A stretch of 58,174 bases of DNA, filler included, from Sphacelaria rigidula (taxonomy: Eukaryota), in NCBI GenBank assembly GCA_964200075.2. It is 9 parts of 9 records of this genome, joined end to end, with 100 filler letters (N's around TTAATTAATTAA, not from the genome) between each part and the next. Parts side by side here need not be neighbours in the genome. Positions count along the whole stretch, not along the records: positions 1 to 6,376 come from CAXNAA020020451.1; 8 more parts are not named here. One strand, written 5' to 3'. The position numbers were made by a program, and so were the translations under genes. Below the pieces are notes generated by a model, which worked only from the letters and a program-made list of their open reading frames with translations, was not told where the DNA came from and made no database searches. Shown here piece by piece: positions 1 through 57,203 of this stretch. Position 1 is the stretch's first letter. Every line of letters begins with the position of its first letter.

Positions 1-84
1 AAGTGTTTCGCGTCTTCTCTGCAAACGAGAAATGTCATTTTAACCCCATATTTTGTATGAACCTCATTTTCTAGGATCCACTGT

Positions 85-490
85 CACTTCGTGATTTTTC
101 ACGCCGGGGATGGTAACATATGTGATCCCCTGGGGTTTTTTTTTTACATGATTGCGATCATATGTGGAAAACCTGTTTTTTTTTTCCTCGCACTTTGAAT
201 CCCTTCCCTTCCTTGGGATGAGTCCGTGGTCTCAAGGGATCAACCCATCTCTCCCCCGGTACGTGCCTTTCATTTTAGTCTCGCGGATTGGGTCAGCACT
301 CCCGCACCGCGTCACCTCACGTCACACAACCCGAGTCAAGTACTTTGTTTACTCACGTTTTTCTCACGCTTTCCACGGTGGTGGTGGGAATCATACATTA
401 AGAAGAAAAATCCCAACGCATCGGGAATCGAACCCCCGTTCTCTCCGCCCTATTGGCGACAGTCGGACCGTTACACCACCGGGGCGCGGC
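85..490 (-). mobile_element. tRNA-derived SINE, family A, copy 1
   Basis: Minus-strand head GCCGCGCCCCGGTGGTGTAACGG (A box) ... GGTTCGATTCC (B box), then a ~330-bp body repeated at 520-922, 15937-16160 and more divergently 20658-21045. Confidence 0.8.
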
Positions 491-519
491 GGCGCTGTTA
501 CATAACTACATGATAAGCC

Positions 520-922
520 CACTTGGTGATTTTTTCACGCCGGGGATGGTGACATATGTGATCCCCTGGGGGGGGGTTTTTACATGATTGCGATCATATG
601 TGGAAAACCTGTTTTTTTGTTGATCCTCACACTTTGAATCCCTTCCCTTCCTCGGGATGAGTCCGTGGTCTAAGAGATCAACCCATCCATCTCTCCCCCG
701 GTACATGCCTTTCATTTTGGTCCCGCGGATTGGGTCAGCACTCGCGCACCGCGTCAACTCACGTCACACAAACCCAGTCAACTACTTTGTTTACTCACGT
801 TCTCACGCTTTCCACGGTGGAAATCATACATTGCGAAGAAAAAACCCAACGCATCAGGAATCGAACCCCGTTCTCTCCACCCTAATGGCGATGGTCAGAC
901 CCTTTTACCACCGGCGTGCGGC
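520..922 (-). mobile_element. tRNA-derived SINE, family A, copy 2 (tandem with copy 1)
   Basis: Highly similar direct repeat of 85-490; B box GGTTCGATTCC on the minus strand. Confidence 0.8.
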
Positions 923-2354
923 GGAGCTGTTGGAGGTACGTATGTCGAAAACAACTGTATTGGGTACATTATCGCAATATTTCACCACGAGCTTATCCAA
1001 TGAGATTTTCCAAACGGGCTCATCTTGTGGGACAGAGGGAGTGGCGAACAATGAATCAAACAGTTTTAGGCATCACCAACGGGACGTAGTGCGCCCGTTT
1101 CAACCTGGTGTGAGTTCCCGTAGTGCACCGTGTGGTGAACTACGCCGTACATGTATTCAATGTGCAGCAATCACAGTTGGTGGTTTCTCTACTCTGCCTA
1201 GCCCCAACATGTTACATGCAATGCATTGTCGTGTTGGATACAACTTGTCTTCAAAGTTCCCGCGATTACACGCTAAATCTCTTCGCTGCACGACGTTCTT
1301 GCCTCATCAACAACCTGCTGGGTCACGACCGCAGCGGCTTCGGAGATGCGAGTGTCATACCTTGCATCAAGGTGAAGATGGGGATACTGGATACTGGTGT
1401 TGCGTACTGTACTGTACACTATAGTCTACTTTACTGCCGCTGTGTACATCACGATAGACGTTAATGGCTCGCAATGGAAGTAATCCTGGTCTTTCAGGCA
1501 TCGGTTGCTCTCGACACGGCGCCTCTTGTGTGTGCCAAGAAGAACCAGTGTTGGTGGCACTGAACAGTTGCAGCGTTTTGCTAGGGTGACGGGTATAACA
1601 CCCCTGTCCGATATTTTTGTCATGCCTCCGCAATTCACCCCTCTTCAATAATATTGTCGGGACATATCATTGATTCGGTGTCTTCGTGTACAATATCGAT
1701 GAATTGGTCTCTGATCAGTGCAAAGTACTGTTGCCTTCCCGGGCATATCAAGCAGTATTGTCGCCCGGGGGTGTTATACCCCGTGTAGTGTCGTTTTGTT
1801 GCACAATCCAGCACACCCACCCTGCCGTACCGCACGAGTGCACAAAGCATTTCCTGTGCTGTTATGCTCGACACGTGTCTCGTAAGCACTTGATTTGTCT
1901 TCGCATCGTTACCCCCAACAAAAGGGGGTAGTTGCTCTACAAAACGACCCTTTTTCCGCGCTGGGCCCAGAAAAAAGTGCATCTCAGACACATGGCCCAG
2001 AATATCGTACACCACGATGCAGCACAAGAGCGGCTAAATTGAGTCCAAAATCGTTGTATCTTTGGTTCCGTCTGTGACTCACGGAGACACATGCGTGTAC
2101 GTCTTAGGTAGGAAAATCAACGACGTCGCCACCAACACACGGATAGATTTTCGACGGCATCTCTCCGGGTTGGCAGGAGAAGCAGAGGAGAGCAGCGTAT
2201 CTCGCAGCGGAAGGACTTATCTAGAGCATTGGGCGGGTATACGCGGCGGAAGGGGTGGGTCACGATCGGATTCCTCCGGATCAGGTGCGCTGGGTCATCA
2301 CGCTGAATAAGACCCTCTCAGCCCCTTGCGCGCGTGCTTTCCGTTTTCCTTCAA

Positions 2355-2716
2355 TGTGTGTGTGTGTTGCCATCCCATCTATCCTGGACGCCAGGTGAAG
2401 CCTTTCAGTATCTGTGGGCGCATAAGCCGAAGTCACACAGGAAGAAGACGAACCCAGGAGTTTTTTCATGTACTTCTCGTTTTAGTACAGTACTGCACCT
2501 TCCTTCTGCGGTGCTTACCTTATTTTTCATCGCGAGAGGGGATCAGCAGTCCCTTTCCCTTGTCGACCGTGAAGTCGAAAGTCTGTGTGCCCACGACATA
2601 TTCGCTCCCCACTGTTGGGCATAGTGTAAGGGGAAAAGCCCAGATGGTGTGACTTCACCGAGATTCGAACCCACGACCGCCAAAAGATTTCAAGGATATC
2701 AGCTGAGCCACCGGAG
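2355..2716 (-). mobile_element. tRNA-derived SINE, family B
   Basis: Minus strand CCGGTGGCTCAGCTG (A box), GGTTCGAATCTC (B box) and (CA)n tail; homologous to 14477-14850, 25169-25710, 48384-48690 and 6170-6300. Confidence 0.8.
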
Positions 2717-5150
2717 CTTCAATGCACCGTGTTATGCATGTTTCGTTGGTCCAGTATCGTGCAACGCTGTTTTGCGCGCGCACAGTGGGTTTGAGAATAC
2801 CGTTAATCGGGGAGGGGGCATACGCGTTTTTGTTTTTCTATTGGTTAATTGTCGCATATTAACTGGTCTCCCAGGGATACAGCTGTAGTCACAAGATAGA
2901 CATACATTACCCGAAATGAACAAAACGGAAACAGTCCCTGAAGAACAGCGAAGAAAACAGGACGGTGCAACAGACAGAGTAAGCTGAAAAAAAGGGGGAG
3001 AAAGAAAAATGGAAATGGCCGGCCTCTGCAACATGGCTTCAAGTGGAAAAGGTCTCGCACAAAAAGCGCACGCACTCAGACCCAGACGAAATCAAAGAAA
3101 GCTGTGGAAACAGATTGCGGCTCAGCTATTTCGACCACGCCATTTTGGGTACGAGCTTTCACCCACAAAATCTACAGAAGAGAGGTACAAAGCTGCGGCT
3201 TGCATACACCGGGAGGGGAGAAACATATCGAGAGGAAGTGAAAACAGAAGAATTTGCGGAAGTGACGGAACCCAAGGGCAGAATACAGTAGAGCAGCTAC
3301 AAACAGACAATCAGGGGACACCGCAAGACCACCGACCAAGGGCAAAAGGACAACATCAACAACTGATAAGACAAGATAGGGGTACTATACCTCATTATTT
3401 TCTCGCTTATCGCTGAGAATCCGTCGCAATCCCATAATCCATACGCCCATCATATGAGCACGGCTGGATCCCTGGGGGAACAGCGAAAGTACGACAATCA
3501 TCACTCTTACAGGTTGAAGAAAAATGTTTTGACCGATGAACGGGAATATATGCGGCACCATGGCGGTTTTGTTTCCACCAAGTAGTGGTAGTGCGGCTAT
3601 GAGCATTGAGAAACCAGGGCGCACCCAGCACTCAGCACTACTACAGCAATGCCATGCGAGTATATATTGCTCTCGATGCATCATCACGCGCACCGAAATG
3701 AAATTAGCTCTTGGTTGGCTTGAGTGCAGTCAGAGTCAAGTACTTTTGGGGGGGTTGGGTTCAGGGACGACTGAATGAAAACCGAGGTGTTCAGCAGCCG
3801 TGACACAGTAATAACAATCCAATCGGTATACAAATACGCTCTCTTCCATTGTAGATTCCGCACGCCTTGATGTTGCTCGTCTTCTCCTGAATTGAGTCCC
3901 GTGAACCAAAGCGTATTTTGTATAGCTGAGAAAAGCGGTATCGGCAAATCGAGTGCTCTTAGGCTTGGGCACTCCACATGTGCTGGCAAGCGTGGCTCTA
4001 CAGAGAGAATTTTCACATTTGCGCGAGGCCGTAGCGCTTGAAAATTAATCCTTCTGCTGCATGAGCTAGGTAGGTCCGTCCTGTAGTAGAACGTGGTCGG
4101 CCAAGCCGCCGTTCGTTTCTTCGCTCATTTTTCTGTTTGGACCCGCACCTGCCCGATTTGAAAAAACGAAAACGAGTTGACTCGACTCAGAAATCATTTC
4201 CCCAGAAATTTGTTCAAGGCAGGACCTCTTACAACTAGTAGTATTTTATTTTCCCCAAAAATCTGGTTCCCGTGGTCCGTCTTTCGAAGGGTAGTGGTGT
4301 GAGTGTTGAAGTAAAACCTTCGCCGAACGTTGGCGGTCAGCAGCAGTGCTGGTTCAAGGCTTGATGGTACATATTGAGACAGGTACCAGGGGGAAATATA
4401 TCGGTTCATCAAAATCTAGACCCGTCCAGGGGAGAAGGGGCGCTCAAAAGTTTCAACAAGGATGGCAACTGTGTAACTTATATAACACCCTTCCACGCGC
4501 GCGCGATTGGTTCGAGAACGACGTTGGGGACATGTGGGACCATGATATGAGCTGGTTGGTATTGTAGAAGCAGCCGGTTGAGCGTCGCACCTCGTCTGAG
4601 GGGTATGCATTCATGCTTTGATGTTGCTGCCCGCCGCGCTCTCAGTCACGGGATAGGGGGGAAGTAAGAGACTCGTGAAGCGAACCGTGGCCCCATTTAC
4701 CGTATGTCGCGTGGAAAGGGGACAGGGGGGACGTTGATATAATCTGGAACAGTACAGTGCTGTGCCTTCCTTACGGCGGCTTTTTTTTTCAAGGCGGGGA
4801 GGGGGGAAGGGCATTACACGACCCTAGAAATCGGCTTGCACTATTGCTCCTCCGGTCGCTAGGTACAGCCCAATTCACCTCAAGAATGAGTCCCACTAGG
4901 AGGCGATCAATTATTCTTGCGCTATATCGCATGATCTAAGTAGGGTCCGCACTGTGGGTATGTATATATGTAGACATATACACTTACATGGCAAGTGTGA
5001 CTGTCCTCGTGTTTCTAGTTCAAGATATGCTTAAACGTTCCCTGGAGAAGAACATCAAGAGCACCTCAGCGACGCAAGCGTCGTGCGGCATGCTGCCGAT
5101 ACATGACTCCGCCCCCCCCCCCCCCCCCCCCGTTCCCCTGCTCCTGTCAG

Positions 5151-5503
5151 ACCCACCCAGAGGCGCAACACCGCGCGAACGGGGACAAGAACAACACCGA
5201 CAACAACAGCAGCCGATCACAACATTTTTCGGTCGCACATATCTAGTTCCCACGATAAGGATGCCTCCTTTTCCTCCGCAGCCGTCTGCAGCGCGACACG
5301 GAGGAAGCGCAGGCACAAAAGCTGATAGGGCAGGCAGGAAAGCGGCGGGCGCGGAGGAGGGGGGGCTGGAGGACGAGGATGAACGGGTTTTCGAGTGGAT
5401 GAGCGGCATGTTGCTGCAGGGAAACGGGGGGGTCGCGGGAACGTCCGGTATTTTGCCTGCAGCCGGCTCTCCCGTTGTGCTGGATCTTGGGGCTGTTTCG
5501 CAG
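5151..5503 (+). CDS. minC: Internal exon, probable septum site-determining protein MinC N-terminal domain
   Basis: Poly-C tract + CTGTCAG acceptor, CAG|GTGTGT donor; open frame encodes FFGRTYLVPTIRMP...RVFEWMSGMLLQ...AGSPVVLDLGAVSQ, resembling alphaproteobacterial MinC (GRSY..., W-L, GRPVVLDLSAV). Confidence 0.5.
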
Positions 5504-5632
5504 GTGTGTGTTGACCTCATATTCAGATTGATTGACTGCACGGGAAATTGTTCTCGATAGCTTTTGGAATCTAACTGCTGGAGCTTAAGAATAGGACCCC
5601 CCGCCCTACTCCTACCCCTCCTGCGTTGTACA

Positions 5633-5710
5633 AGTAGGAATGATGATCCGTCTCGAAAGGGATGCGTGGTCAAATGATCAAACGACTGAGGCAAGCAACA
5701 AAGGAGTGTC
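5633..5710 (+). mobile_element. 3' fragment of the APE-RT LINE family seen at 54592-57203
   Basis: Shares TCTCGAAAGGGATGCGTGGT...CAAACGACT..GGCAAGCAACAAA with 57150-57200. Confidence 0.75.
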
Positions 5711-6169
5711 AACCCCCTGCGCGCGCAGCCGAGGCAGTGTTGTTCGTAACACGTTTAACCCATCCCCTTCCTCTGAAGGAGTCCTTGATTTCAAGGGATG
5801 AAACAACCCTTCTCTCCTCCAGTACGACACACGACTTGCATTCTGGTACACTTCAAAATCGTGGATTGGATCATGACTATCAAGCTATCAGCACTCCGGC
5901 GTGGCGTCGACTCTCCTGAAAACGAACTATTTTTTTTACGGTCACTTTCTCGGGTCTTCGTCGATGGAAAGTAGATACTTGAATGAAGGGAAAAACCCAG
6001 GTGCCTCTGTGCCGGAAATCGAAACCCGCGTCCGTCCGACCTATCTCGTCCTGCGGCAAGGTTTATTGGCACATTCACCCGCGTAAAGTGTTTTTTACGT
6101 CTGATCGTACGCCTCTTGCGACCTTACCATTCATTATCAACGGTCCGCAGCCCAAACGCCAGGCAGGTA

Positions 6170-6300
6170 TGTGTGTGTGTGTGCTGTCGTCCGATCTATT
6201 CCGGACGCCGGTCTACACCTTTCGGTATATGTGGGCGCACCAGCCGGGGTTACACAGAAGGAAGGTCAACACGGGATTTTATTCTATTTTATTTGTTCTT
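6170..6300 (-). mobile_element. SINE family B 3' fragment
   Basis: (GT)n followed by GGACGCCGGTCTA..CTTTCGGTATATGTGGGCGCA..GGAAGGTCAACAC as in the other copies. Confidence 0.7.
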
Positions 6301-6303
6301 AGC

Positions 6304-6335
<32 letters not shown>

Positions 6336-6376
6336 ACCCCCCCCACCGGCGGCTTCGCTGGCAGGGGTAAATGGCA

Positions 6377-10495: not shown

Positions 10496-11111
10496 CTGGG
10501 GGGGCACGGGTTCAGTCGGTGCTTCCGCGGAAGGCGAAAAATGAAAATAGAGAAGGAAACGGGAGCTCGAACCTCCAACTTACGCTGTTGTACTTTTGTA
10601 GGGTCCAATCAAGTGCAACATGAATAAAAATCCGCATTTGAGTAAATTCCGCGATAGTCCCCCCTCCCTACAGGTCAGTGGTCTGATGACTATGGCATGC
10701 ATGATCATGGGTACACCCCCCTCCCTACACCCCCCTGTTATACGGGCCAAAAAAACTGTCGCAAATAAACAGCCATACAGCGCATCGACATGATGGACTG
10801 TTTCCAGGAACCAGGTCTAAACACCTCACATCTAGATTTTTCCTCGGTCCCCATTACACTGTTCTACGGGATTGCTATTATACCGCGGGTTGCTACCGCG
10901 GCACCACGTAATTTTGTTTTTCCGCTGCTGCCAACGATGACGACAGCGCTCATTTACAGCACCCATGTAGGCAGAAACGCAAAGGCGTGCAAAACGCTGA
11001 GACATGCCCAGAAACGAGCTCTGTCCCGCCTGTTCCGGCGAAGGGGTTGGGGGGTTGAGGGGTCGGGAAGGCTCCACGCACTCCACGGCTACCGTGCTAT
11101 GTCTCTCTCAC

Positions 11112-11278
11112 CTCATGCACTCGTCCATGGGCGTGACCTCGCGCGAACCCATGAACCTCCTTAGACTGTCGCGTGTGACCACGCCCACCAGGCGGCCAGC
11201 GTTGCAAACGTAGGCGTTGTCCAGCCTTAGCAGTCGGAAGGCCATGTCAACCTTTGACAGTTCGGTGGTGTGGGTCAC
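11112..11278 (-). CDS. Exon encoding the C-terminal CBS domain of a CLC chloride channel/transporter
   Basis: VTHTTELSKVDMAFRLLRLDNAYVCNAGRLVGVVTRDSLRRF resembles CLC CBS2 (L.KV..LF..L.L..AYV...GRLVGVV); pyrimidine tract + AAAG acceptor, AG|GTGAGA donor. Confidence 0.75.
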
Positions 11279-12851
11279 CTTTTGGTCGTTTGTTTGAAAA
11301 GAGAAGAGGGAAGGGGCGCGGGGGGAGGGAGGGGGGAGGGAGGGGGGAGGGGGGGGGAACGTATGCGAACACGAAGCATACTGATATTTCGTGGAGGTGG
11401 GATAGGGCGTTTGTGGTAGTTGCGGACCGGAGGAAACCACGGTGCAAACGGTTGATTGATTGATTGTCGCACTTTAACTGACCCCCGTGGTCTCATGATG
11501 GACGTACTCAAGAAAAACAAAACTGACACGCTCTGAGGGAAAGGAGGAACCGGAAAAAAAAAAAAAGTTGAGCAGGACGACACAGCAGACTAAGTCGTAA
11601 CAAAAAACAAGTAATAGACAGTCAACAAAGCAAAGCACAGAAAGAAATGGCCGACCTAAAACCACAACAACAAAAAGAAAACGAAGAGGAAAGGAAAGAG
11701 CGAATAAAATAAAATACAAAAACGGTACACAAGTTATTCGATCAGGGAGGCAGTCACTCGGCCCTTGTTGATAAAAAAAACTTCCTTCATAGACAGTACT
11801 CGCAGATATCTAGTTGGAGAGCATCCTAACGAACGGCATAGAGAAGGAAAGCCCTGCTACCACAGCAGTGATGAAAATGACGGAATACTCAACATCAAAG
11901 CTTGATTTCCTCTATTTAGGCAAGATTCCGCACTACAAGAAGATATCACCCTCTTGACCCACACTGCGATGAGATATCATGTTCTTGACCAACGACGAAG
12001 CTTCCAGCAAGCGGCTTGGTCTACCTGATATCTTGGTGTGATATATCTCATTATTTGGGAGTACGGTAAGGTGGTTCGTTCGTCTGACGGGAAAACAAGC
12101 AGCTTCGTGGTTTCCTTCCGCCGTCATGGTCTCATGACCATGGCATGTACGATCATGAGTAACCCCCATTGTGGTCACACATCAGGGGGGGTAATGAGTA
12201 AAATGATGGATAGCCACAGCACCGGTGTCGAATCCAGATCTCCGGTCGAAAAGGGCTCGTGTAAGATACATATCATCGTATTATGCTTTTTTCTCTCGTA
12301 CGAGTGATATTTTTTTTAACTTCACCCCTTCCTCGGAGTTGATCCATAGCCTGACAATATCAACATATTTTTTCCCGTGGTACGTATATGCCTGATACTA
12401 TGGGTAACACTTACTGGCTCACCGCTCCCGCACACCTTCGACTATTCTCAACTTCGATCGTTGAACGGATATACACAAGGACACACTAATATATATATAT
12501 ATATGTATATATTCTCTCTCTATACATATATATGAATGCATCGTCAAATCTTTGTCTCCAATTGAGAGCTGGTGGGGATGTTTCACTAGCTGTACCAAAC
12601 GAACGTCAATGTACACAGAAAAGCCACAAAACTCGCACATCACTTTTAAAATGAAAAGAAGAAAAGAGAGCATGTCTGCATCAACATTAATTCATCACCA
12701 TGAAATACTAGGTGGCAGTATGAAAATGAAATTCAATGTCCAAATGTTTCACACCCTGGAGAACAGACAACAAAAGTGAAGAAAAAAGAAGAGTCATCCT
12801 ACGATAGCGGGGGGGGTATTTTGGGCCATTTGTTGCTCGAAATTTCGAGTC

Positions 12852-12951: not shown

Positions 12952-13072
12952 GGGCTGCGGGTCCGGTGTGGTAAGGGCTCTTGCATGCACTGTCCTGATT
13001 CCCCCCCCCCCCCGCCCTCCCCCCGCTCCTGCCCGCACTCCCTGATTGTGCATGGCGTATTGTATCAACCAG

Positions 13073-13291
13073 GTGCGAAGCAACGAACGGGTGGACGAAA
13101 CAACTGCTCACTGGTATTGGCGGGGGGATAGTCTCTCGGGAGACGACACGACGCCGATCTTCCCCATGAGTGCCGAGATCAGTGCCCACTTGGATGCGGC
13201 ATACCTCATGTTCCTGTCCAATGGCTTGCCGTTCGGTTCGTACAACGTCAACGGCGTGCCGTACCAGGTGGACTTCACGCTCATGCTTCAG
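13073..13291 (+). CDS. Exon encoding a WWE domain
   Basis: CCAG acceptor, CAG|GTGAAT donor, 73 codons; HWYWRGD...SAEISAHLDAAY...NGVPYQVDFTLMLQ matches the WWE pattern (W.W, LE.AY, Y.IDF..M.Q). Confidence 0.75.
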
Positions 13292-14476
13292 GTGAATAAT
13301 GCAGAATGACAGAAGTACATGAATGTTTGACGGGGATTACGGAGTACTATGTTCGAAGACAGTAGCGGAAACGAAAACGAAAACCACAGCAAGAGCGACG
13401 ACGATGACGGCGAAAAAATGTCGAAGACCCGAACCGGGGCATGCCACGAATTTTCCGTCCGACGACGTTTTTCGGACGACGGCTCACGCTGAAAATAAAG
13501 TTGTTTTGGGTGGAATTTTTTTTCCGTCCACACAAAGGCCTCCCTCGACTTTGTCCTCCTCGACAGCGAGTTCTGTCGCGCGCGATAGCAATGGTCCGAA
13601 TAGCCCGGGCTGCCTGAAGACCCCGTATGGTTTTTACTGGTGTGCCGGATGTGTGTCTTCCTGTGCTACTGACTTGTCGGGGTCTTGTGTGCTGTACTGG
13701 TACTACTCCGCAGTGTGCCGCACCATATGAGTACATGTCCTGTACTGTTGTGCTATGGTACCATACTGTAATGCATTTGCTGTATGTACGCCGTGCTCAT
13801 AGTACAAGCCGTACTGCACACCATTGGCGGATCCTAAAGGCAGTGATATGCAGCGTCCTATGCGATGGACATCCTACCACCAGCTGGGGGGGTGTACTCA
13901 TGATCATGCCAGCTGGGGGGGGGGGTTTCTGCATGTAGCACTCTACTATGCTGGGCACACGTGCAGCAAAACAGAGCGAGTTCTGCCCGTTTCAGATATT
14001 TTATGCTAGAATATATATCATGTTCTAGATCCGCATGAATGTGGTGGGTGTTTTGCCAAACGTGTAATTTTGGAAAATTGTTCTGAATTGACGGAGTACC
14101 TGACGAACACTATAGGAAAAAGTTTTTTCTCGTCTACTGTGTTTTGTAGCACAACACCTGCCAATACGCTTGAGGGACCCACTTTCGACAATTGTACTGG
14201 TATAGTAGAATAAATATGAAAACTTGCACAAGTTTGAGAAAAGTCCTTCTGAACTCGCAGACAGCTGACAACGTTTCGAACTCTACATCCGTTCGAATTC
14301 CGTTCTATTCGACCCCTGGAAAATCAACAGGAGCGCCCTGTGTCCTGGTCATGGGTTCGCGCGACTGTTGAAAGCCAGCTTTTGGAATATATATTTTCGT
14401 GCCGAACCTGATGTGTACATGCTCAGGAAGAAGAGATATTTGCCGAATCGAAATCTCCACACGCACATATGACCCG

Positions 14477-14850
14477 GTCGCCCCGGTGGCTCAGTTGGTA
14501 GCCTCGAATCCTTCTGATGGTTGAGTTGTGGGTTCGAATCTCGGTGCAGTCACACGATGTGGGATTTTTTCTCGCGTCGTGTCCATCAGGGGAGAACGAC
14601 TATGTCGTGAGTACACGGCATTCGACTTCACGGTCGACGAGAGAAAGGAACCGCTGAGCCCTTCTCGCGATAAAAGAAAGGCAAACACCGCAAAAAGAAG
14701 GTATAGGACTAAAACGAGAAAAAATGAAAGGAAACGCCTGTGTTCACCTTCCTCCCGAGTGACCCCGGCGGATGCGCCCACGTGTACGGAAAGCTGCAGA
14801 CTGGCGTCCAGAATAGACAGGATGACTACACGCTCATAACACCCACACGT
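14477..14850 (+). mobile_element. tRNA-derived SINE, family B, full length
   Basis: A box TGGCTCAGTTGG, B box GGTTCGAATC, body homologous to 2355-2716, CA-rich tail. Confidence 0.85.
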
Positions 14851-25168: not shown

Positions 25169-25710
25169 CTGTGCGTGTTTCCTGTCATCCCGTTTGCTCT
25201 GGACACCAGTCTATGCTTTCTGGTCCACGCGCGGCATTTGGCTACCCCCAAAATTCCTCCAAGGCGGTCAAAATTTTCGAGCCTCCAGAGGAATTAAATG
25301 CCTCCGGAGAGGTGCGCGGCCCTACAGAGGAGTATTATTTGGTTTCCTCCAGAGGGATTAAACGCCTCCGGGGTCTTGTTTTTGCCTCTGCAGGGCCGCA
25401 CATCCCTCCGGAGGCATTTTGGGGGGTAGCCAAATATGGCCGCGTGTGTATGTGTGGGCGCATCAACCGGGGTCACACAGGAGAAAGGTCAACACAAGAG
25501 TTATATTTTTTGTCTTGTGGTAGTGATCCGCCTTAATTGTGCGGTGCTTGCCTACATTATTACTTCGAGAAGAGTCCAGTGGTTCCTTTCCCTCGTCGAC
25601 CGTGAAGCCGAACTGTGTACCCAAGACATGGTCGCTCTCCGCTGTTGGGCATAATGTGAGAAAAAACAACAGATAGTGTGACTTTACCGAGGTTCGACCT
25701 CGTGCTCAGA
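25169..25710 (-). mobile_element. SINE family B interrupted by a MITE
   Basis: SINE body at 25169-25225 resumes at 25447; B-box remnant near 25690. Confidence 0.7.
25226..25446. mobile_element. MITE with ~35-bp TIRs nested in a SINE
   Basis: CACGCGCGGCATTTGGCTACCCCCAAAATTCCTCC / GGAGGCATTTTGGGGGGTAGCCAAATATGGCCGCGTG. Confidence 0.8.
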
Positions 25711-40262: not shown

Positions 40263-41276
40263 TCATCTTCCGTATCCGCGAAAAAATAATACATCATCCA
40301 CCCAAATCTTGCATTTCAAGCCGACAAGCAGTTCTGTCATGATACCTTGAAAATATGCCGTGGCATTCAACACGCCTTGCGGTACTCGCTTCGGGGTAAA
40401 CAAGCCTAACGGGGTCGTGATTGTGAAAATTTCCTGTGCCTCCTCCGCCAACGGCATCTGCCAATACCCTTGGAGGGGATCCAACTTACCAACAAAACGA
40501 GCACTCAACAGATCACGCATGTCCGACTCTTGATTGGGCATCACACCCGGCGACTTCTCAACCTGATCATTTACGGCCTTGTAGTCGCTTACCAGGCAAA
40601 ACGAGACTTTCTTGGGAACCGCCATCGCCGGACTGGACCATACCGCCTGCAGGTTCCGGACTACTAACCCAAGCACCATAAGAGCCGCCATGCACGACCG
40701 CAACCAGCTCGACTTCACCGGATCGTACCGCCGCGGCTTCGCCTTCACCACGTATGCCCCAGGTTTCAGCTGAACACGCATGGGCTCCACGCGCGCAGGG
40801 GGATCATCCCGCAGCGCACGACGAAACGCGTTGACGCAGCGATGCAAGATGTCGCGCAGGCGTTCCGCGTTGGGGACGCTGAGGCCTTTCGCCACAGCAC
40901 CCGTCACGCTCTCCTCCAGCGCGACCTTCCGAGCGGACTCCTCTTCCGCCGGATCCATGAACATATCCGGACCGCGCTCTACTAAGCGTTCCACCGTCGC
41001 ATCCCGCTCCTCGGTCACCTGACCCCCAGCCTCCTGAAAAGCATCCACCGACAAGCTCACGCGACAACTGCCTGAAAAGGCAGGCGTCTCCACGTGCGGA
41101 CCAGGCGGAGACATCCGCGTGTTGATGGAGTCCTTCAACCGCTCATACGGGTCGACTCTTAGATCCTGTAGCGTCGGCAGCCCCAGAAGAACAACGCCAT
41201 CCGACCCTGGCATACTCGCACACGAGATCGGAGGTAACGGCGCTAGCCCCCAAGCAATCTTGAAGGCTAGCTGCAA
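40263..41276 (-). pseudogene. pol: Gypsy pol (reverse transcriptase) fragment
   Basis: ORF with KLDPLQGYWQMPL, TPLGLFTPKRVPQG and KIWVDDVLFF; continues after a frameshift (HDPVRLQGL...ELMQFL). Confidence 0.9.
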
Positions 41277-42442
41277 CGGAACAGTACGCTCCGTGACTGA
41301 AACATGCTGATCTGACGCGGTGACTGCCTGCCGCGCAGCGAGAGAAAAAGGATGCGCAGCGACACACCCGGGAGTTGTCGCTCCAGCATCTCAACCATTT
41401 GCACCGGAAGACTAGTGAAATGGGCGCTAGAATCCAACACAGACCGAACCACAATGGCTCCACGCTGCCCTTGATTTGGAAGACACAACTCCGCCGGAAT
41501 GTATCTGTCGGCAAGCTCCACGGGCACTTCTTCCGCTGACCTATGCACCGCTGATTCCACTCGACGCCACGGCTGCGCAAGCTGTGCAGGCTGCCCAGGC
41601 GAAGACGCCCCGGCAGGTTCAAACGGCACCGCCGGCGGGTACGTCCCCCAGTCAGCAGGCGCCGGACCCAGAGCCAGGTCCATGCTGACGCCGCTGCCCC
41701 TGCTGCTGCTGGTTCTACTGCTGCTGCGGCTGCTGCTGCTGAGGGCTTGCCTGTGACCCTCCATCGCCGGAGGATCGGCCACCGCCACCACGATTACCTC
41801 GTCTTTTCCCCTTGTGCTGACGATGCTGGTGGCGCGCGGCACTAGACTGCCCAGACTCTCCATCGAAGACTTTGGGCAATCGGGCGCGTAATGGCCGACC
41901 TGGCCACAGCGGTGGCAAGTAATAATCGCGGCGCGACCAGCCGATTTCGAGCCATGGTTGCGCAAAGATTTCGACGAAGAGGTGGACGACTGGCCAAACA
42001 CCTCTACTTTCCGCCACTCCTTTGCCTCGGCCACGACGGTGCTCATCCCCAGGTACGGGCCGTCCTTCCAACCTGATTGGTGCTGCAGCTTGACAGGCAT
42101 GGCTTGCTTGAAATGTTCCGGTGCCAACCCCTCCACTAAAGCCTTTGTGATTACTGCTGCCGGGCCGGGAATGAACTCACCATCGGGGGAACGATATACT
42201 AGTTCTACGCCCGGCTTTTCCGAGAAGTACTTCTCCAAATTAGCCAAGATGAGCTCGACACGCTCCAACATCGTTTTCCCCGAGAATCCATTGCGGCAGC
42301 TTTCGCCACGGCCGCGGACGCTTGGATCAGATCTACGTGGCGCCTGCGGCATGTCCAGCATGCTTTTTGATCGCCGCAATTGGTTGCGGCGAAGTGATGG
42401 TGCTCTCGTCATGTTCCAAACGAGCGAATACTCTCTGTACAT
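41267..42442 (-). pseudogene. gag: Gypsy gag / aspartic protease fragment
   Basis: Zinc knuckle and LDSSA in one ORF; frameshift inside the Gly/Arg-rich gag tail. Confidence 0.8.
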
Positions 42443-43212
42443 GAGCCGGCACTTGTTGTGTCACAGTTACCACCTGATGGCGCACGGCACCCCCTGCATT
42501 AGCGTACTCTACACGCCTCTTGTACACTTAGTATTTTGTATAAATAGTGCGAGATGCACTCTCTGAGTACCTCTGTCCCCGTGTTGGGGAGGTCGCAATT
42601 CTTCTCGCATGACCACAGGTGTCACGGTGGACGTACCTCGTGAGCCGGTAGCCATAGCTGTAGCTGTAACCGACTACCTGCGAACCTCTGCAGGCCAGTG
42701 GACCTTCGCGAATTGCACTTTCCTTGCTTCGTCGCCGCACCACACAGTCGTAGGAGCCTTCAAACTCCCGCTGCACGCAGCTTGAGCAAGTCTCCAGTCT
42801 GAATCAATCACAGGCCAGCCGCCTTTCTGCTGCCACCTCAGCTGGAGCCCTCTCCACGCGTCCGTGGTGTATCAGGTTTCCACAACTCCCAGACTCCCAC
42901 CGAAATCCTATTCAGCAGGTATCTAGCACTACACTAGCACTAGCACTAATATCGATATTGTGACTCCAGCCAGTGGAAGCACTATTGAATCCCTGCTGTT
43001 GAGGGGCTCCCCAGTCTCACTGACCTTAGTTTCAGCTGTCAGCCTTTACAATATTCTCATTATTCAGGGGTAACCTTCCAGGGCACCAGCTAGACCCGCA
43101 GATACCATCTCCTTGTCCCCGGTCATTATCCAGAACCCTCCAGAATCTCCGTGCCCTCATTCATATCCATATCATCACCACCAACTCAACGTAACGGCGT
43201 ATTTTCGTCACA

Positions 43213-48383: not shown

Positions 48384-48690
48384 TGTGTGTGTTGTCGTCC
48401 CTTCTCTTCTGGACGCCGGTCTATATCTTTCGGTATATGTGGGCGCATCAGCTGGGGTCACAGAGGAGGAAGGTCAACACGTGAGCTTCTTTTTTTTTTA
48501 GTACCCCACCTTCCTTCTGCGGTACTTGCCTTTNNNNNNNNNNTTGCTGTATTTGCTTTTTTTTTTTTTATCGCGTTAGGGTTTTTGCATTTCTTTTTCT
48601 TCGTCGTTTGTTTAGTCGAATTTTGTGTACCCACGACATAGTCGCTCTCCACAGTTGGGCATGTTGTGAGAAAAAATCCCAGTGTGATGA
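48384..48690 (-). mobile_element. SINE family B lacking the tRNA head
   Basis: Body matches 2355-2640; contains a 10-N gap. Confidence 0.7.
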
Positions 48691-54591: not shown

Positions 54592-57203
54592 AGGAAGTTG
54601 AGAGTAGGATTGTGGAACGTGTGTGGATTGGTCACGGACAAATGTAAAATAATTGAGATAGCCGAACAAGCACAGTAGGGATCCAAGAGTCATGGGAGAA
54701 GGAGAAGGCGGAGATAGGATGCAGAGGTGGAGAGTACGCATGGATAGGGGAAAAGTAAAAGAGACAAAACCCCAAGAACGGGGAAGCAGGGGAAGTAGGA
54801 TTCTTGGTCAAGGAATATTTGTGTGACACCATAGAAGTGATCAAAGACACAAAAATCGACGAGATCATATCGATACGGGTATCCGGGGAACAGGGAACGA
54901 AATATGTTTTCGTAGGGAACATCTATATGCCCCCAGAATCAAAGAGTACGGTAAACGATATACAGAGGAGGTCTGAAGAGATAGTAGCAGATGTTCACAA
55001 GTATAAAAGGCAAGGAGGAGCAATGTTAGCAGGCGATTTTAATGCAAGGGTTGGAAAAGAGGTGAATACGCTGAGCAATAGAGCACAAGAGCAAGAGGTG
55101 CAGTGGACATGGTCAAGAAACTGTGAAGACAAGGAAAAACGCTCCATTCTTGACTATATTAGTAGAGTATGGAATAAGTGAGGGAATGGAGGTACATGTA
55201 TACGCAGAAGACGTGGGAGCTATGGATCATTGCCTAATATGGACAGAAAGTTAACAGACGAGAGCTAAAAAAAAAGGCGGGGCAGAAAGTCGTACAAACG
55301 AGGAATATTAGAACTAGAAATTCAAGAATTACAGCAAGAATTTCAAGAAGAGGTGACGAAAGATGCGGTCGATTTTTGTGAACCATTGAAAAGCGTAGGT
55401 ACAGTTGGTACCGAAGTAGAAATAGATCGGGCAGGAGCGGAGATTATAGAAGGATGGGAGCGGTTGTTCAAGGCCACAGCAAGTAAAGTCATGGGCGATA
55501 AACTAATCGTATGCAACAGAGCAGTAAAAGGGTGGGATGAGGAAGTAAAAGAGTCTGAGCGAATAAAGAGAGAGGATCACGCAAGATATACATCAAGTGA
55601 AGCTACGGTAAGATGGGAAGAGTATGGTAAAGCTCGACAGGAGATAAAAAATGCGGTAGAGAAGGGAAATAAGGGGACATGGAAAGAAGATTTAGTGCGT
55701 GAAGCAATGAAGATTTCGATGTCGGCATGAAACAAATGTGGGCAGGAATAAAAAGGACAAAAGGGGAGCAGGCAGGAGAGATAGACAAGGGGATAGTTAC
55801 GCTGGAGCACAAAACGGTAAAATGATTATAATAGTGGTACGAAGGGGAAAAGAGAAGTACTAGCAGAGGACGACAAAAAACTAGGGACACCAACAGCTCA
55901 CCAGAGGTTCGACGCGAAGTTCGAGAAACAAATCAACGTGTGGGCAGAGGCGATTTAATGTAAAGGCACAAAGCGTGAAGATAGCGGCCCAAAATAATTG
56001 CCGAAACATTTCACCAGAGATGAAGTATAGGAGTGTGTACCTAAAGTCAAGAACAGGAAGGCAGCAAGGGCAGACGAATAGTGAACGAATTTCGAAAGCG
56101 TGGGGGAGAGGGAATGGTCACCACGTCGGTTATGCTGTATCAACAGGTGTGGAAAAAGGGGTATACACCCCATTGGTGGAGAGAATGAGTAGTAGTAAAC
56201 TTTTTCAAGGAAGGAGACAAGGCTGGCCCAGGGAATCATCGAGGGATAACGCTACTGAGCACCACAGAACATACAACTTGTAAGACTCTGAAAGATAAAG
56301 TGGGAACAATGCTAGATGAAGGAGATAAAACAAGCAAGAGGCAAGCGTTTTTCGACCAGAACGTGGCTGCGTAGACCATGTGTACACACTAGATACGCTT
56401 ATTCAAGGTAGGAAAGGCGCCGGGCTAGCAACGTCCTGCTCCTGTCTAGACGTACTGGAGGCCTATGGCAGTATGGAGAATTGGGCTGTGGAAAAAGAAG
56501 ACGGAGACAGTACAGATCATATGACTGCAGCTAAGGAAATACTTGAATGCTCAAAAATGACGAGTAATACAGCATTGAGAGCAGGCTTTGGAATGGATCT
56601 GCTTTGAACAAATGGAGATGAGAGATGAATGAAATGACAAGATATTGTAGTGTAAAGAACATGCAGAGGAGGAGATTGCCAGCCATAGTTGATAGGTCAA
56701 TATTGAAGGAAGTGTCGAAAGGGCAGGCTGAAACACGGTGGGTTAACGTAGTGGAGAAAGTACCGAAGGACATGAGAGGAAACCAAGACGAGGTCAGAAG
56801 AAAAGGCATACCAGTAGTTGAGTGGAGGAGGCAGAAGATGCACAAAATTGTCCCTGTGGCGAAGCAAGCGGGTAGAACTCAAATAGTGACAGAATGTGAA
56901 CTAAACAAGGAGGAACGGGACTGGTTAGAGCGGGAAATGTCGGAGGTAAACGAAGGTGGCATCGAATCGTTTGATGCATTAGACCGTAGCGAGAAAACGA
57001 TAGCTATACCAGGGACGTATATGGTAGCCACAGACGGCGAAACAGGACGGGATAAGATGTGTAGATGGGGTTTGTGTAGTGTACGGAAGAAACGTGATGC
57101 GCGCCGAAATGTTGGAGGGTTTTCCAGTAGGAGTAAGAATGGTTCTCGGTCTCGAAAGGGATGCGTGGTGAACGGTCAAACGACTACGGCAAGCAACAAA
57201 TGA
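54592..57203 (+). mobile_element. Degenerate LINE ORF2 (APE endonuclease + reverse transcriptase, internal RT deletion)
   Basis: APE motifs LRVGLWNVCGL, IQESW, NIYMPP, AGDFNARVG, ILDYI, DH; RT motifs PGNHRGITLLS, FRPERGCVDHVYTL, LDVLEAY; YADD region missing; many stops. The element may extend upstream to ~54000. Confidence 0.9.

What the first reader, a model, noticed from the sequence alone, without database searches (positions are those of the whole stretch)
5151..5503. Spliced exon resembling alphaproteobacterial MinC: a candidate mitochondrial Min division gene
Seen: a clean AG/GT-bounded exon encoding three ordered blocks (FFGRTYLVPTIRMP; VFEWMSGMLL; AGSPVVLDLGAVS) separated by low-complexity inserts. 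Known: the alphaproteobacterial MinC N-domain has this order of motifs (R.RGRS(F/Y)..., W-L, GRP(V/I)VLDLSAV), and nucleus-encoded mitochondrial MinC/D/E homologues have been reported in scattered eukaryotes including stramenopiles. Inference: this is the N-terminal domain of an insert-expanded organellar MinC that standard annotation would probably miss.
Basis: partly seen in the sequence, partly recalled or inferred. Interest (0 to 1): 0.72.

Follow-up and report, generated by a model that had tools for sequence, protein, structure and literature searches.

The report
Brown algal mitochondrial MinC division gene
This is one exon of an ordinary, expressed nuclear gene of a seaweed for a bacterial-type division regulator that most likely works inside mitochondria, a gene already reported from a related seaweed.

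Summary
5151-5503 is a real exon: transcript contigs of 3 of 3 presumed RNA runs splice it to two upstream exons (to 1371; 2108-2284) and, in one run, onward into the next conserved MinC block. Its best full-length relative is a 468-aa Ectocarpus protein with a MinC_C domain; that protein's matching region folds like E. coli MinC-N (Z 8.4). The RSGQ beta-helix exons lie on another contig (C10240). The N-terminus is basic, acid-free for 47 residues and has no signal peptide, as expected for a mitochondrial presequence. Trees place the protein with other eukaryotic MinCs beside proteobacteria and reject a cyanobacterial (plastid) origin; a specifically alphaproteobacterial origin is neither shown nor rejected. 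MinE is in the genome. MinD and a mitochondrial FtsZ were not found, but the assembly also lacks one proven MinC exon. Mitochondrial MinC in Ectocarpus and Nannochloropsis has been in print since 2012, so this is a new member of a known kind. Small extras: two eukaryote-only motifs (YLExWxG, DGSPH) and a brown-algal insert in the FtsZ-inhibiting domain.

The parts
1209..1371 (+). Coding exon 1: inferred start ATG (1209; alternative 1221) and most of the presequence-like N-terminus
   Evidence: RNA contigs reach 1150, 1220 and 1279 and splice at 1371|2108; P0098, a spliced product, is identical to the exon 1-2-3 translation over 179 aa. Start codon inferred; an in-frame ATG at 942 lies upstream of the listed RNA pieces
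1372..2107 (+). Intron 1, GT..AG, 736 nt
   Evidence: joint in 3 of 3 presumed RNA runs, not in the control run
2108..2284 (+).
   Evidence: tblastn of P0002 61-89, 55% identity; RNA contigs
2285..5150 (+). Intron 2, GT..AG, 2866 nt, with dispersed repeats
   Evidence: same RNA contig runs from 2280 to 5147 in 3 of 3 runs (table 8); phases match
5151..5503 (+). Coding exon 3 (the finding): first half of the MinC N-terminal domain (beta1, brown-algal insert, helix, PVVLDL strand)
5225..5266 (+). Block 1, equivalent to the long beta1 strand of E. coli MinC-N (Gly10 kept, the preceding Lys not)
   Evidence: profile alignments
5387..5416 (+). Block 2, start of the helix after the low-complexity insert; conserved among brown-algal-type exons only
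5462..5503 (+). Block 3, PVVLDL strand; spliced onward to DGSPHGRPAG
   Evidence: loose end at 5504 in run X1; hhalign
5504..6376 (+). Start of intron 3, to the contig end. The next exon is missing from the assembly; five further exons lie on G000:C10240 minus strand (7347-6784, 4330-4274, 2397-2314, 1366-1280, 177-85)
   Evidence: the link between the contigs is inferred, not read directly

Best explanation
The exon belongs to the single nuclear minC gene of a brown alga, about 574 aa in at least nine coding exons. Shown: it is spliced and expressed, and it has the MinC architecture (N-domain, long disordered linker, beta-helical C-domain with RSGQ and GRALAG). Inferred: the basic N-terminus imports it into the mitochondrial matrix and is cleaved; the C-domain dimerises and is recruited to the inner membrane by MinD through RSGQ; MinE patterns MinD; the N-domain, half of which this exon encodes, blocks polymerisation of mitochondrial FtsZ away from the division site, as in bacteria.
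For: Best long relative is Ectocarpus CAM9393861.1 with MinC_C at E 1e-26. Transcript continues into DGSPHGRPAG, identical to P0002 190-199. One MinC_C locus in the genome, C10240, whose exons continue P0002 237-467 in frame; the 1082 nt of transcript beyond the exon equal 885 nt of those exons plus about 147 nt for the missing exon plus 50 nt. Model folded from 17 eukaryotic-type rows only: residues 106-242 match E. coli MinC-N 4l1c at Z 8.4, rmsd 3.0, 90 of 98 residues, next N-domain match Z 5.4; C-domain Z 20.2 to 6riq. Eukaryote-only profile hits 4l1c at E 0.018; 2 of 17 members hit Pfam MinC_N. First acidic residue at 48, 6 R/K in the first 40, no hydrophobic stretch. Eukaryotes plus cyanobacteria rejected, p-AU 0.0002. 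MinE exon over Pfam cut-off. PMC3499364 predicts mitochondrial MinC/MinD in Nannochloropsis and similar genes in E. siliculosus. Bacterial mechanism from PMC6803595.
Against: No MinD exon found in two searches (only an Mrp-type ATPase and a plastid ChlL-like gene, names recalled). No mitochondrial FtsZ found in three searches; the three FtsZ loci found group with cyanobacteria. No targeting predictor could be run and no location was measured. The two contigs are not linked by a read I saw. The structure is of the Ectocarpus orthologue, not of this protein, Z 8.4 is only just above the tool's caution level, and the exon part has middling pLDDT (44-84 per block). The N-domain is remodelled (insert, loss of the Lys before Gly10), so FtsZ inhibition may have changed.
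Confidence: 0.86

Rival explanations
1. Mitochondrial MinC that has outlived its partners: this alga has lost MinD and/or mitochondrial FtsZ, and MinC with MinE does another job or binds the membrane through its own eukaryote-specific helix.
For: MinD and mitochondrial FtsZ not found in five searches; all three FtsZ loci are plastid-type; the N-domain is remodelled and carries a conserved extra helix.
Against: The searches score few candidates exon by exon, and the assembly (27,214 contigs) lacks even a MinC exon proven by RNA. RSGQ, the MinD-binding motif, is intact. PMC3499364 reports a MinD-like gene in E. siliculosus, and PMC4164004 lists brown algae among holders of mitochondrial FtsZ.
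Confidence: 0.08
2. A proteobacterial-type MinC retargeted to, or shared with, the plastid, where it regulates the three plastid FtsZs.
For: Only plastid-type FtsZs were found. In a tree without an outgroup the eukaryotes and cyanobacteria form one side of a branch, support 92.
Against: No hydrophobic signal peptide (best 11-residue hydropathy 0.32), which entry into a four-membrane plastid needs (PMC3499364). With Bacillota added, eukaryotes plus cyanobacteria are rejected.
Confidence: 0.04
3. The exon belongs to a different or broken gene and the MinC_C exons on C10240 to another gene; or bacterial contamination.
For: The contig link was not read directly; the exon alone has no Pfam hit and its profile matches bacterial MinC at only 22% probability over 15 columns.
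Against: Spliceosomal introns, open frame through all exons, collinearity with the one Ectocarpus protein, a single MinC_C locus and the fit of transcript length.
Confidence: 0.02

Closest known systems
Ectocarpus MinC (CAM9393861.1 = P0002, 468 aa; E. siliculosus 312-aa 'conserved unknown protein' = P0006)
   Same: Orthologue: sister in all three trees (SH-aLRT 97-98), same blocks in the same order, 46% identity over the exon, 61-87% over the MinC_C exons.
   Different: About 100 aa longer here (linker and N-terminus); the 312-aa Ectocarpus models lack the presequence and block 1.
Mitochondrial FtsZ-Min system of protists (Nannochloropsis, diatoms, jakobids; PMC3499364, PMC7050145, PMC4989108, bioRxiv 2020.11.23.393678; Leger et al. 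2015 known only by citation)
   Same: Nucleus-encoded, presequence-bearing, proteobacterial-type MinC, with MinE in the genome.
   Different: MinD and mitochondrial FtsZ not found in this assembly; brown-algal insert between beta1 and the first helix.
Proteobacterial MinC (E. coli 4l1c/5xdm, Pseudomonas 6riq; Pfam PF05209 and PF03775)
   Same: Two-domain fold, RSGQ and GRALAG, PVVLDL strand, Gly of beta1.
   Different: Presequence, YLExWxG helix and DGSPH loop (0 of 161 bacterial MinCs), a much longer linker, and no min operon.

Membership tests
MinC | C-terminal beta-helix domain (PF03775) | tested here: met
   C10240 exon over the cut-off, 39.2 bits; orthologue E 1e-26; Z 20.2 to 6riq. On a separate contig; link inferred
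MinC | RSGQ MinD-binding motif | tested here: met
   VRSGQQV across the 6784|4330 joint of C10240; role from PMC6803595
MinC | N-terminal MinC_N domain | tested here: met
   Orthologue model vs 4l1c Z 8.4-8.7; Foldseek E 0.0018 (alignment held bacterial rows); profile-profile alignment spans the domain. The exon alone scores nothing in Pfam
MinC | Inhibits FtsZ polymerisation | not testable with these tools
   needs an assay
Mitochondrial FtsZ-Min system | Nuclear, spliced, expressed gene | tested here: met
Mitochondrial FtsZ-Min system | Mitochondrial presequence, no signal peptide | tested here: inconclusive
   Composition fits; no trained predictor available; start codon inferred
Mitochondrial FtsZ-Min system | Proteobacterial, not cyanobacterial, ancestry | tested here: met
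   Eukaryotes plus proteobacteria support 100; eukaryotes plus cyanobacteria p-AU 0.0002; quick trees, long-branch warning, 2 Bacillota as outgroup
Mitochondrial FtsZ-Min system | Specifically alphaproteobacterial ancestry | tested here: inconclusive
   Not in the best trees; p-AU 0.14 and 0.079
Mitochondrial FtsZ-Min system | MinE present | tested here: met
   C17536:5936-6049, 32.6 bits, cut-off 25; 3 relatives with PF03776; exon too short to type (best 36.6 vs 33.5 bits)
Mitochondrial FtsZ-Min system | MinD present | tested here: inconclusive
   not found; fragmented assembly, 2 and 1 candidates scored
Mitochondrial FtsZ-Min system | Mitochondrial FtsZ present | tested here: inconclusive
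   not found; three plastid-type loci (only one alphaproteobacterial reference)
Plastid (cyanobacterial-type) MinC | Cyanobacterial ancestry and bipartite targeting signal | tested here: not met

The most novel reading that the evidence does not exclude
Brown algae keep a mitochondrial MinC and MinE that no longer act through MinD on a mitochondrial FtsZ: the eukaryote-only YLExWxG helix, placed just after the presequence, would anchor MinC to the inner membrane or a new partner, and the remodelled N-domain would have another target. A weaker form: the system is complete, but that helix and the DGSPH loop are an undescribed eukaryotic addition that adapts MinC to the organelle.
Probability: 0.08. 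Interest if true: 0.7.

Novelty: new member of a known kind. Interest (0 to 1): 0.3.

Why it matters
It confirms that a multicellular seaweed still expresses a bacterial division-site regulator most likely aimed at its mitochondria, and it gives a correct 5' gene model where 3 of 5 Ectocarpus models seen are truncated. The papers I read infer the system's role from sequence and expression; I saw no loss-of-function test, but could not read the main paper. Brown algae offer a host for one. The gene itself is not a discovery.

Tried and rejected
Pfam scan of the exon and of P0098: no family. Profile of 10 brown-algal-type exons against bacterial MinC: 22% probability, only the PVVLDL block. Search for the exon after 5503 by protein and by two DNA patterns: not in the assembly; two weak hits (C12889, C482) have stops and lack the transcript letters. 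The frame open from 4940 into the exon is intron read-through: RNA contigs do not cover it. An acceptor at 2111 was considered and dropped; RNA shows 2107. The rest of the window is other contigs joined by linkers, so it says nothing on neighbours. BLAST scores to proteobacterial versus cyanobacterial MinC (median 99.8 vs 55.1 bits, 78 and 83 proteins) are not used as proof, since the proteobacterial set was picked by similarity. The careful tree did not finish; quick trees are reported. No run is on record as RNA. Earlier findings of the scan: none. Leger et al. 2015 is not held. No complex was predicted, since MinC dimers and MinCD are textbook pairs.

Full report
Setting. The window is a string of contigs joined by N-linkers; only 1-6376 is G000:C20451, in a 244-Mb assembly of 27,214 contigs. 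That the organism is a brown alga is inferred from its long introns and from Ectocarpus being the closest named relative.

Observation. The exon is as described: AG at 5149-5150, GT at 5504-5505, 353 nt, one open frame with the three blocks. It has no Pfam hit. A search among longer proteins gave 2 hits of 1146 candidates, one being Ectocarpus sp. 12 CAM9393861.1 (P0002, 468 aa, E 8e-13), which carries MinC_C. The pairwise score is 57.8 bits; 500 shuffles reach at most 23.1. A whole-library search gave 14 hits at E 0.001; the top 9 and one more are this exon type, and 4 look like low-complexity matches that I did not fetch.

Gene model. I laid 4 of the 8 listed runs. In 3 of 3 presumed RNA runs one contig crosses both introns; the fourth run covers the introns continuously. 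In X1 the contig goes on after 5503 with letters that read DGSPHGRPAG, as in P0002. That exon is absent from the assembly. The only MinC_C match in the genome is on C10240, where five GT-AG exons continue P0002 in frame to a stop, with RSGQ and GRALAG. Their boundaries rest on homology. The X1 contig has 1082 nt beyond the exon: 885 nt for these exons, about 147 nt for the missing one, 50 nt left for a 3' UTR. The link is therefore well supported but inferred. The model is about 574 aa.

Fold. AlphaFold models of P0002 were made from a mixed alignment (33 rows) and from 17 eukaryotic-type rows. Both give MinC-C at Z about 20 and match E. coli MinC-N (4l1c) over residues 99-242 or 106-242 at Z 8.7 and 8.4, rmsd 2.6 and 3.0; the next N-domain match in the second search is a STAS domain at Z 5.4. 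The eukaryote-only profile finds 4l1c at E 0.018 and 3ghf at E 0.1, and aligns block 1 to the long beta1 strand; 2 of 17 members hit Pfam MinC_N. The exon encodes the first half of that domain. In brown-algal-type exons a PPFP turn, a variable low-complexity insert and an acidic run precede the helix; the insert has pLDDT under 50 in the model. The profile of these exons alone matches bacteria only at the PVVLDL block.

Location and ancestry. From ATG 1209 the first acidic residue is at 48, with 6 R/K in the first 40 and no hydrophobic stretch: presequence-like, not a signal peptide. This is composition only. In a 64-row quick tree the 18 eukaryotic-type rows form one group (93), the model is sister to P0002 (98), and cyanobacteria plus Bacillota are split off at 100 (two chosen loci had no usable protein). 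In a 32-row tree without outgroup, eukaryotes and cyanobacteria are one side of a branch (92), because the proteobacteria group among themselves. With two Bacillota added (37 rows) that union is rejected, p-AU 0.0002, while eukaryotes plus alphaproteobacteria is not recovered and not rejected (0.079; 0.14). The trees carry long-branch warnings, the rows are subsets of 161 bacterial MinCs, and most eukaryotic-type rows are unnamed, assigned by presequence and motifs.

Partners. A MinE exon passes the Pfam cut-off on C17536 and has 3 relatives. MinD was not found. Three FtsZ loci were found and group with cyanobacteria at 95, against a single Rickettsiales reference; a pattern for the other type found nothing. 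Because the assembly lacks a proven MinC exon and the searches score few candidates, these blanks are inconclusive.

Mechanism. Shown: expression, splicing, architecture, RSGQ, proteobacterial-type ancestry, MinE. Inferred from the bacterial system as reviewed in PMC6803595 (passages): MinC-C dimerises and binds MinD through RSGQ, MinC-N shortens FtsZ filaments, MinE patterns MinD. Import into mitochondria and action on mitochondrial FtsZ are inferred.

Eukaryote-only features. A YLExWxG-type motif is in 23 of 31 eukaryotic-type proteins (several of the misses are 5'-truncated) and a DGSPH-type loop in 27 of 31; both are in 0 of 161 bacterial MinCs (the patterns were written after seeing the alignment). 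The first is modelled as a helix at pLDDT about 60. I did not search the literature for these motifs, and the paper most likely to show them could not be read.

Literature. PMC3499364 (passages and 24 of 26 supplements searched; its tree figures are not readable) reports mitochondrion-predicted MinC and MinD in Nannochloropsis and similar sequences in E. siliculosus. PMC7050145 and PMC4989108 (passages) and bioRxiv 2020.11.23.393678 (section 11; supplements closed) report the system in jakobids and a diatom. PMC4164004 (passages) lists brown algae among holders of mitochondrial FtsZ. PMC3795569 (passages) describes MinC-N. PMC13650779, PMC5559719 and bioRxiv 2020.01.24.917146 (passages) added nothing specific. 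Leger et al. 2015 was seen only as a citation; its figures and supplements may already hold the Ectocarpus set and the motifs.

Verdict. A real, expressed exon of a brown-algal MinC, most likely mitochondrial; new member of a known kind; interest 0.3.

Noticed in passing
P0004, P0005, P0006: Three Ectocarpus MinC models of 312 aa start at the middle block of this exon and so lack the presequence and beta1; probably truncated annotations.
   Followed up: partly
P0020, P0027, P0037: Three of 17 eukaryotic-type MinCs have a SAP-domain hit in the linker (best E 4e-5), a possible DNA-binding addition.
   Followed up: no
G000:C17536:5879-6052 (L014): MinE first exon; it starts with a short amphipathic-looking segment shared with three relatives rather than a long presequence.
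   Followed up: partly
G000:C1169, C10884 with C20906, C5822: Three FtsZ genes, all grouping with cyanobacteria; C1169 is on a long branch. That C10884 and C20906 are one gene is assumed.
   Followed up: partly
window 11111-11473 (-): Exon with a weak CBS-domain match (E 0.009), on another contig.
   Followed up: no
window 13055-13291 (+): Exon with a weak WWE-domain match (E 0.001), on another contig.
   Followed up: no
window 40266-42460 (-): Zinc knuckle and reverse transcriptase frames: a retrotransposon remnant.
   Followed up: no
window 54759-55178 (+): Endonuclease/exonuclease/phosphatase match in a purine-skewed stretch (54-57 kb), probably a LINE-type element.
   Followed up: no
window 2359-2717, 6176-6301, 14475-14831, 25448-25662, 48384-48682: Copies of a dispersed repeat of about 360 nt, also on C10240, very deep in all runs; two copies lie in this gene's introns.
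   Followed up: no
window 62-520 and 522-930: A tandem duplication of about 450 nt upstream of the gene, seen by eye.
   Followed up: no
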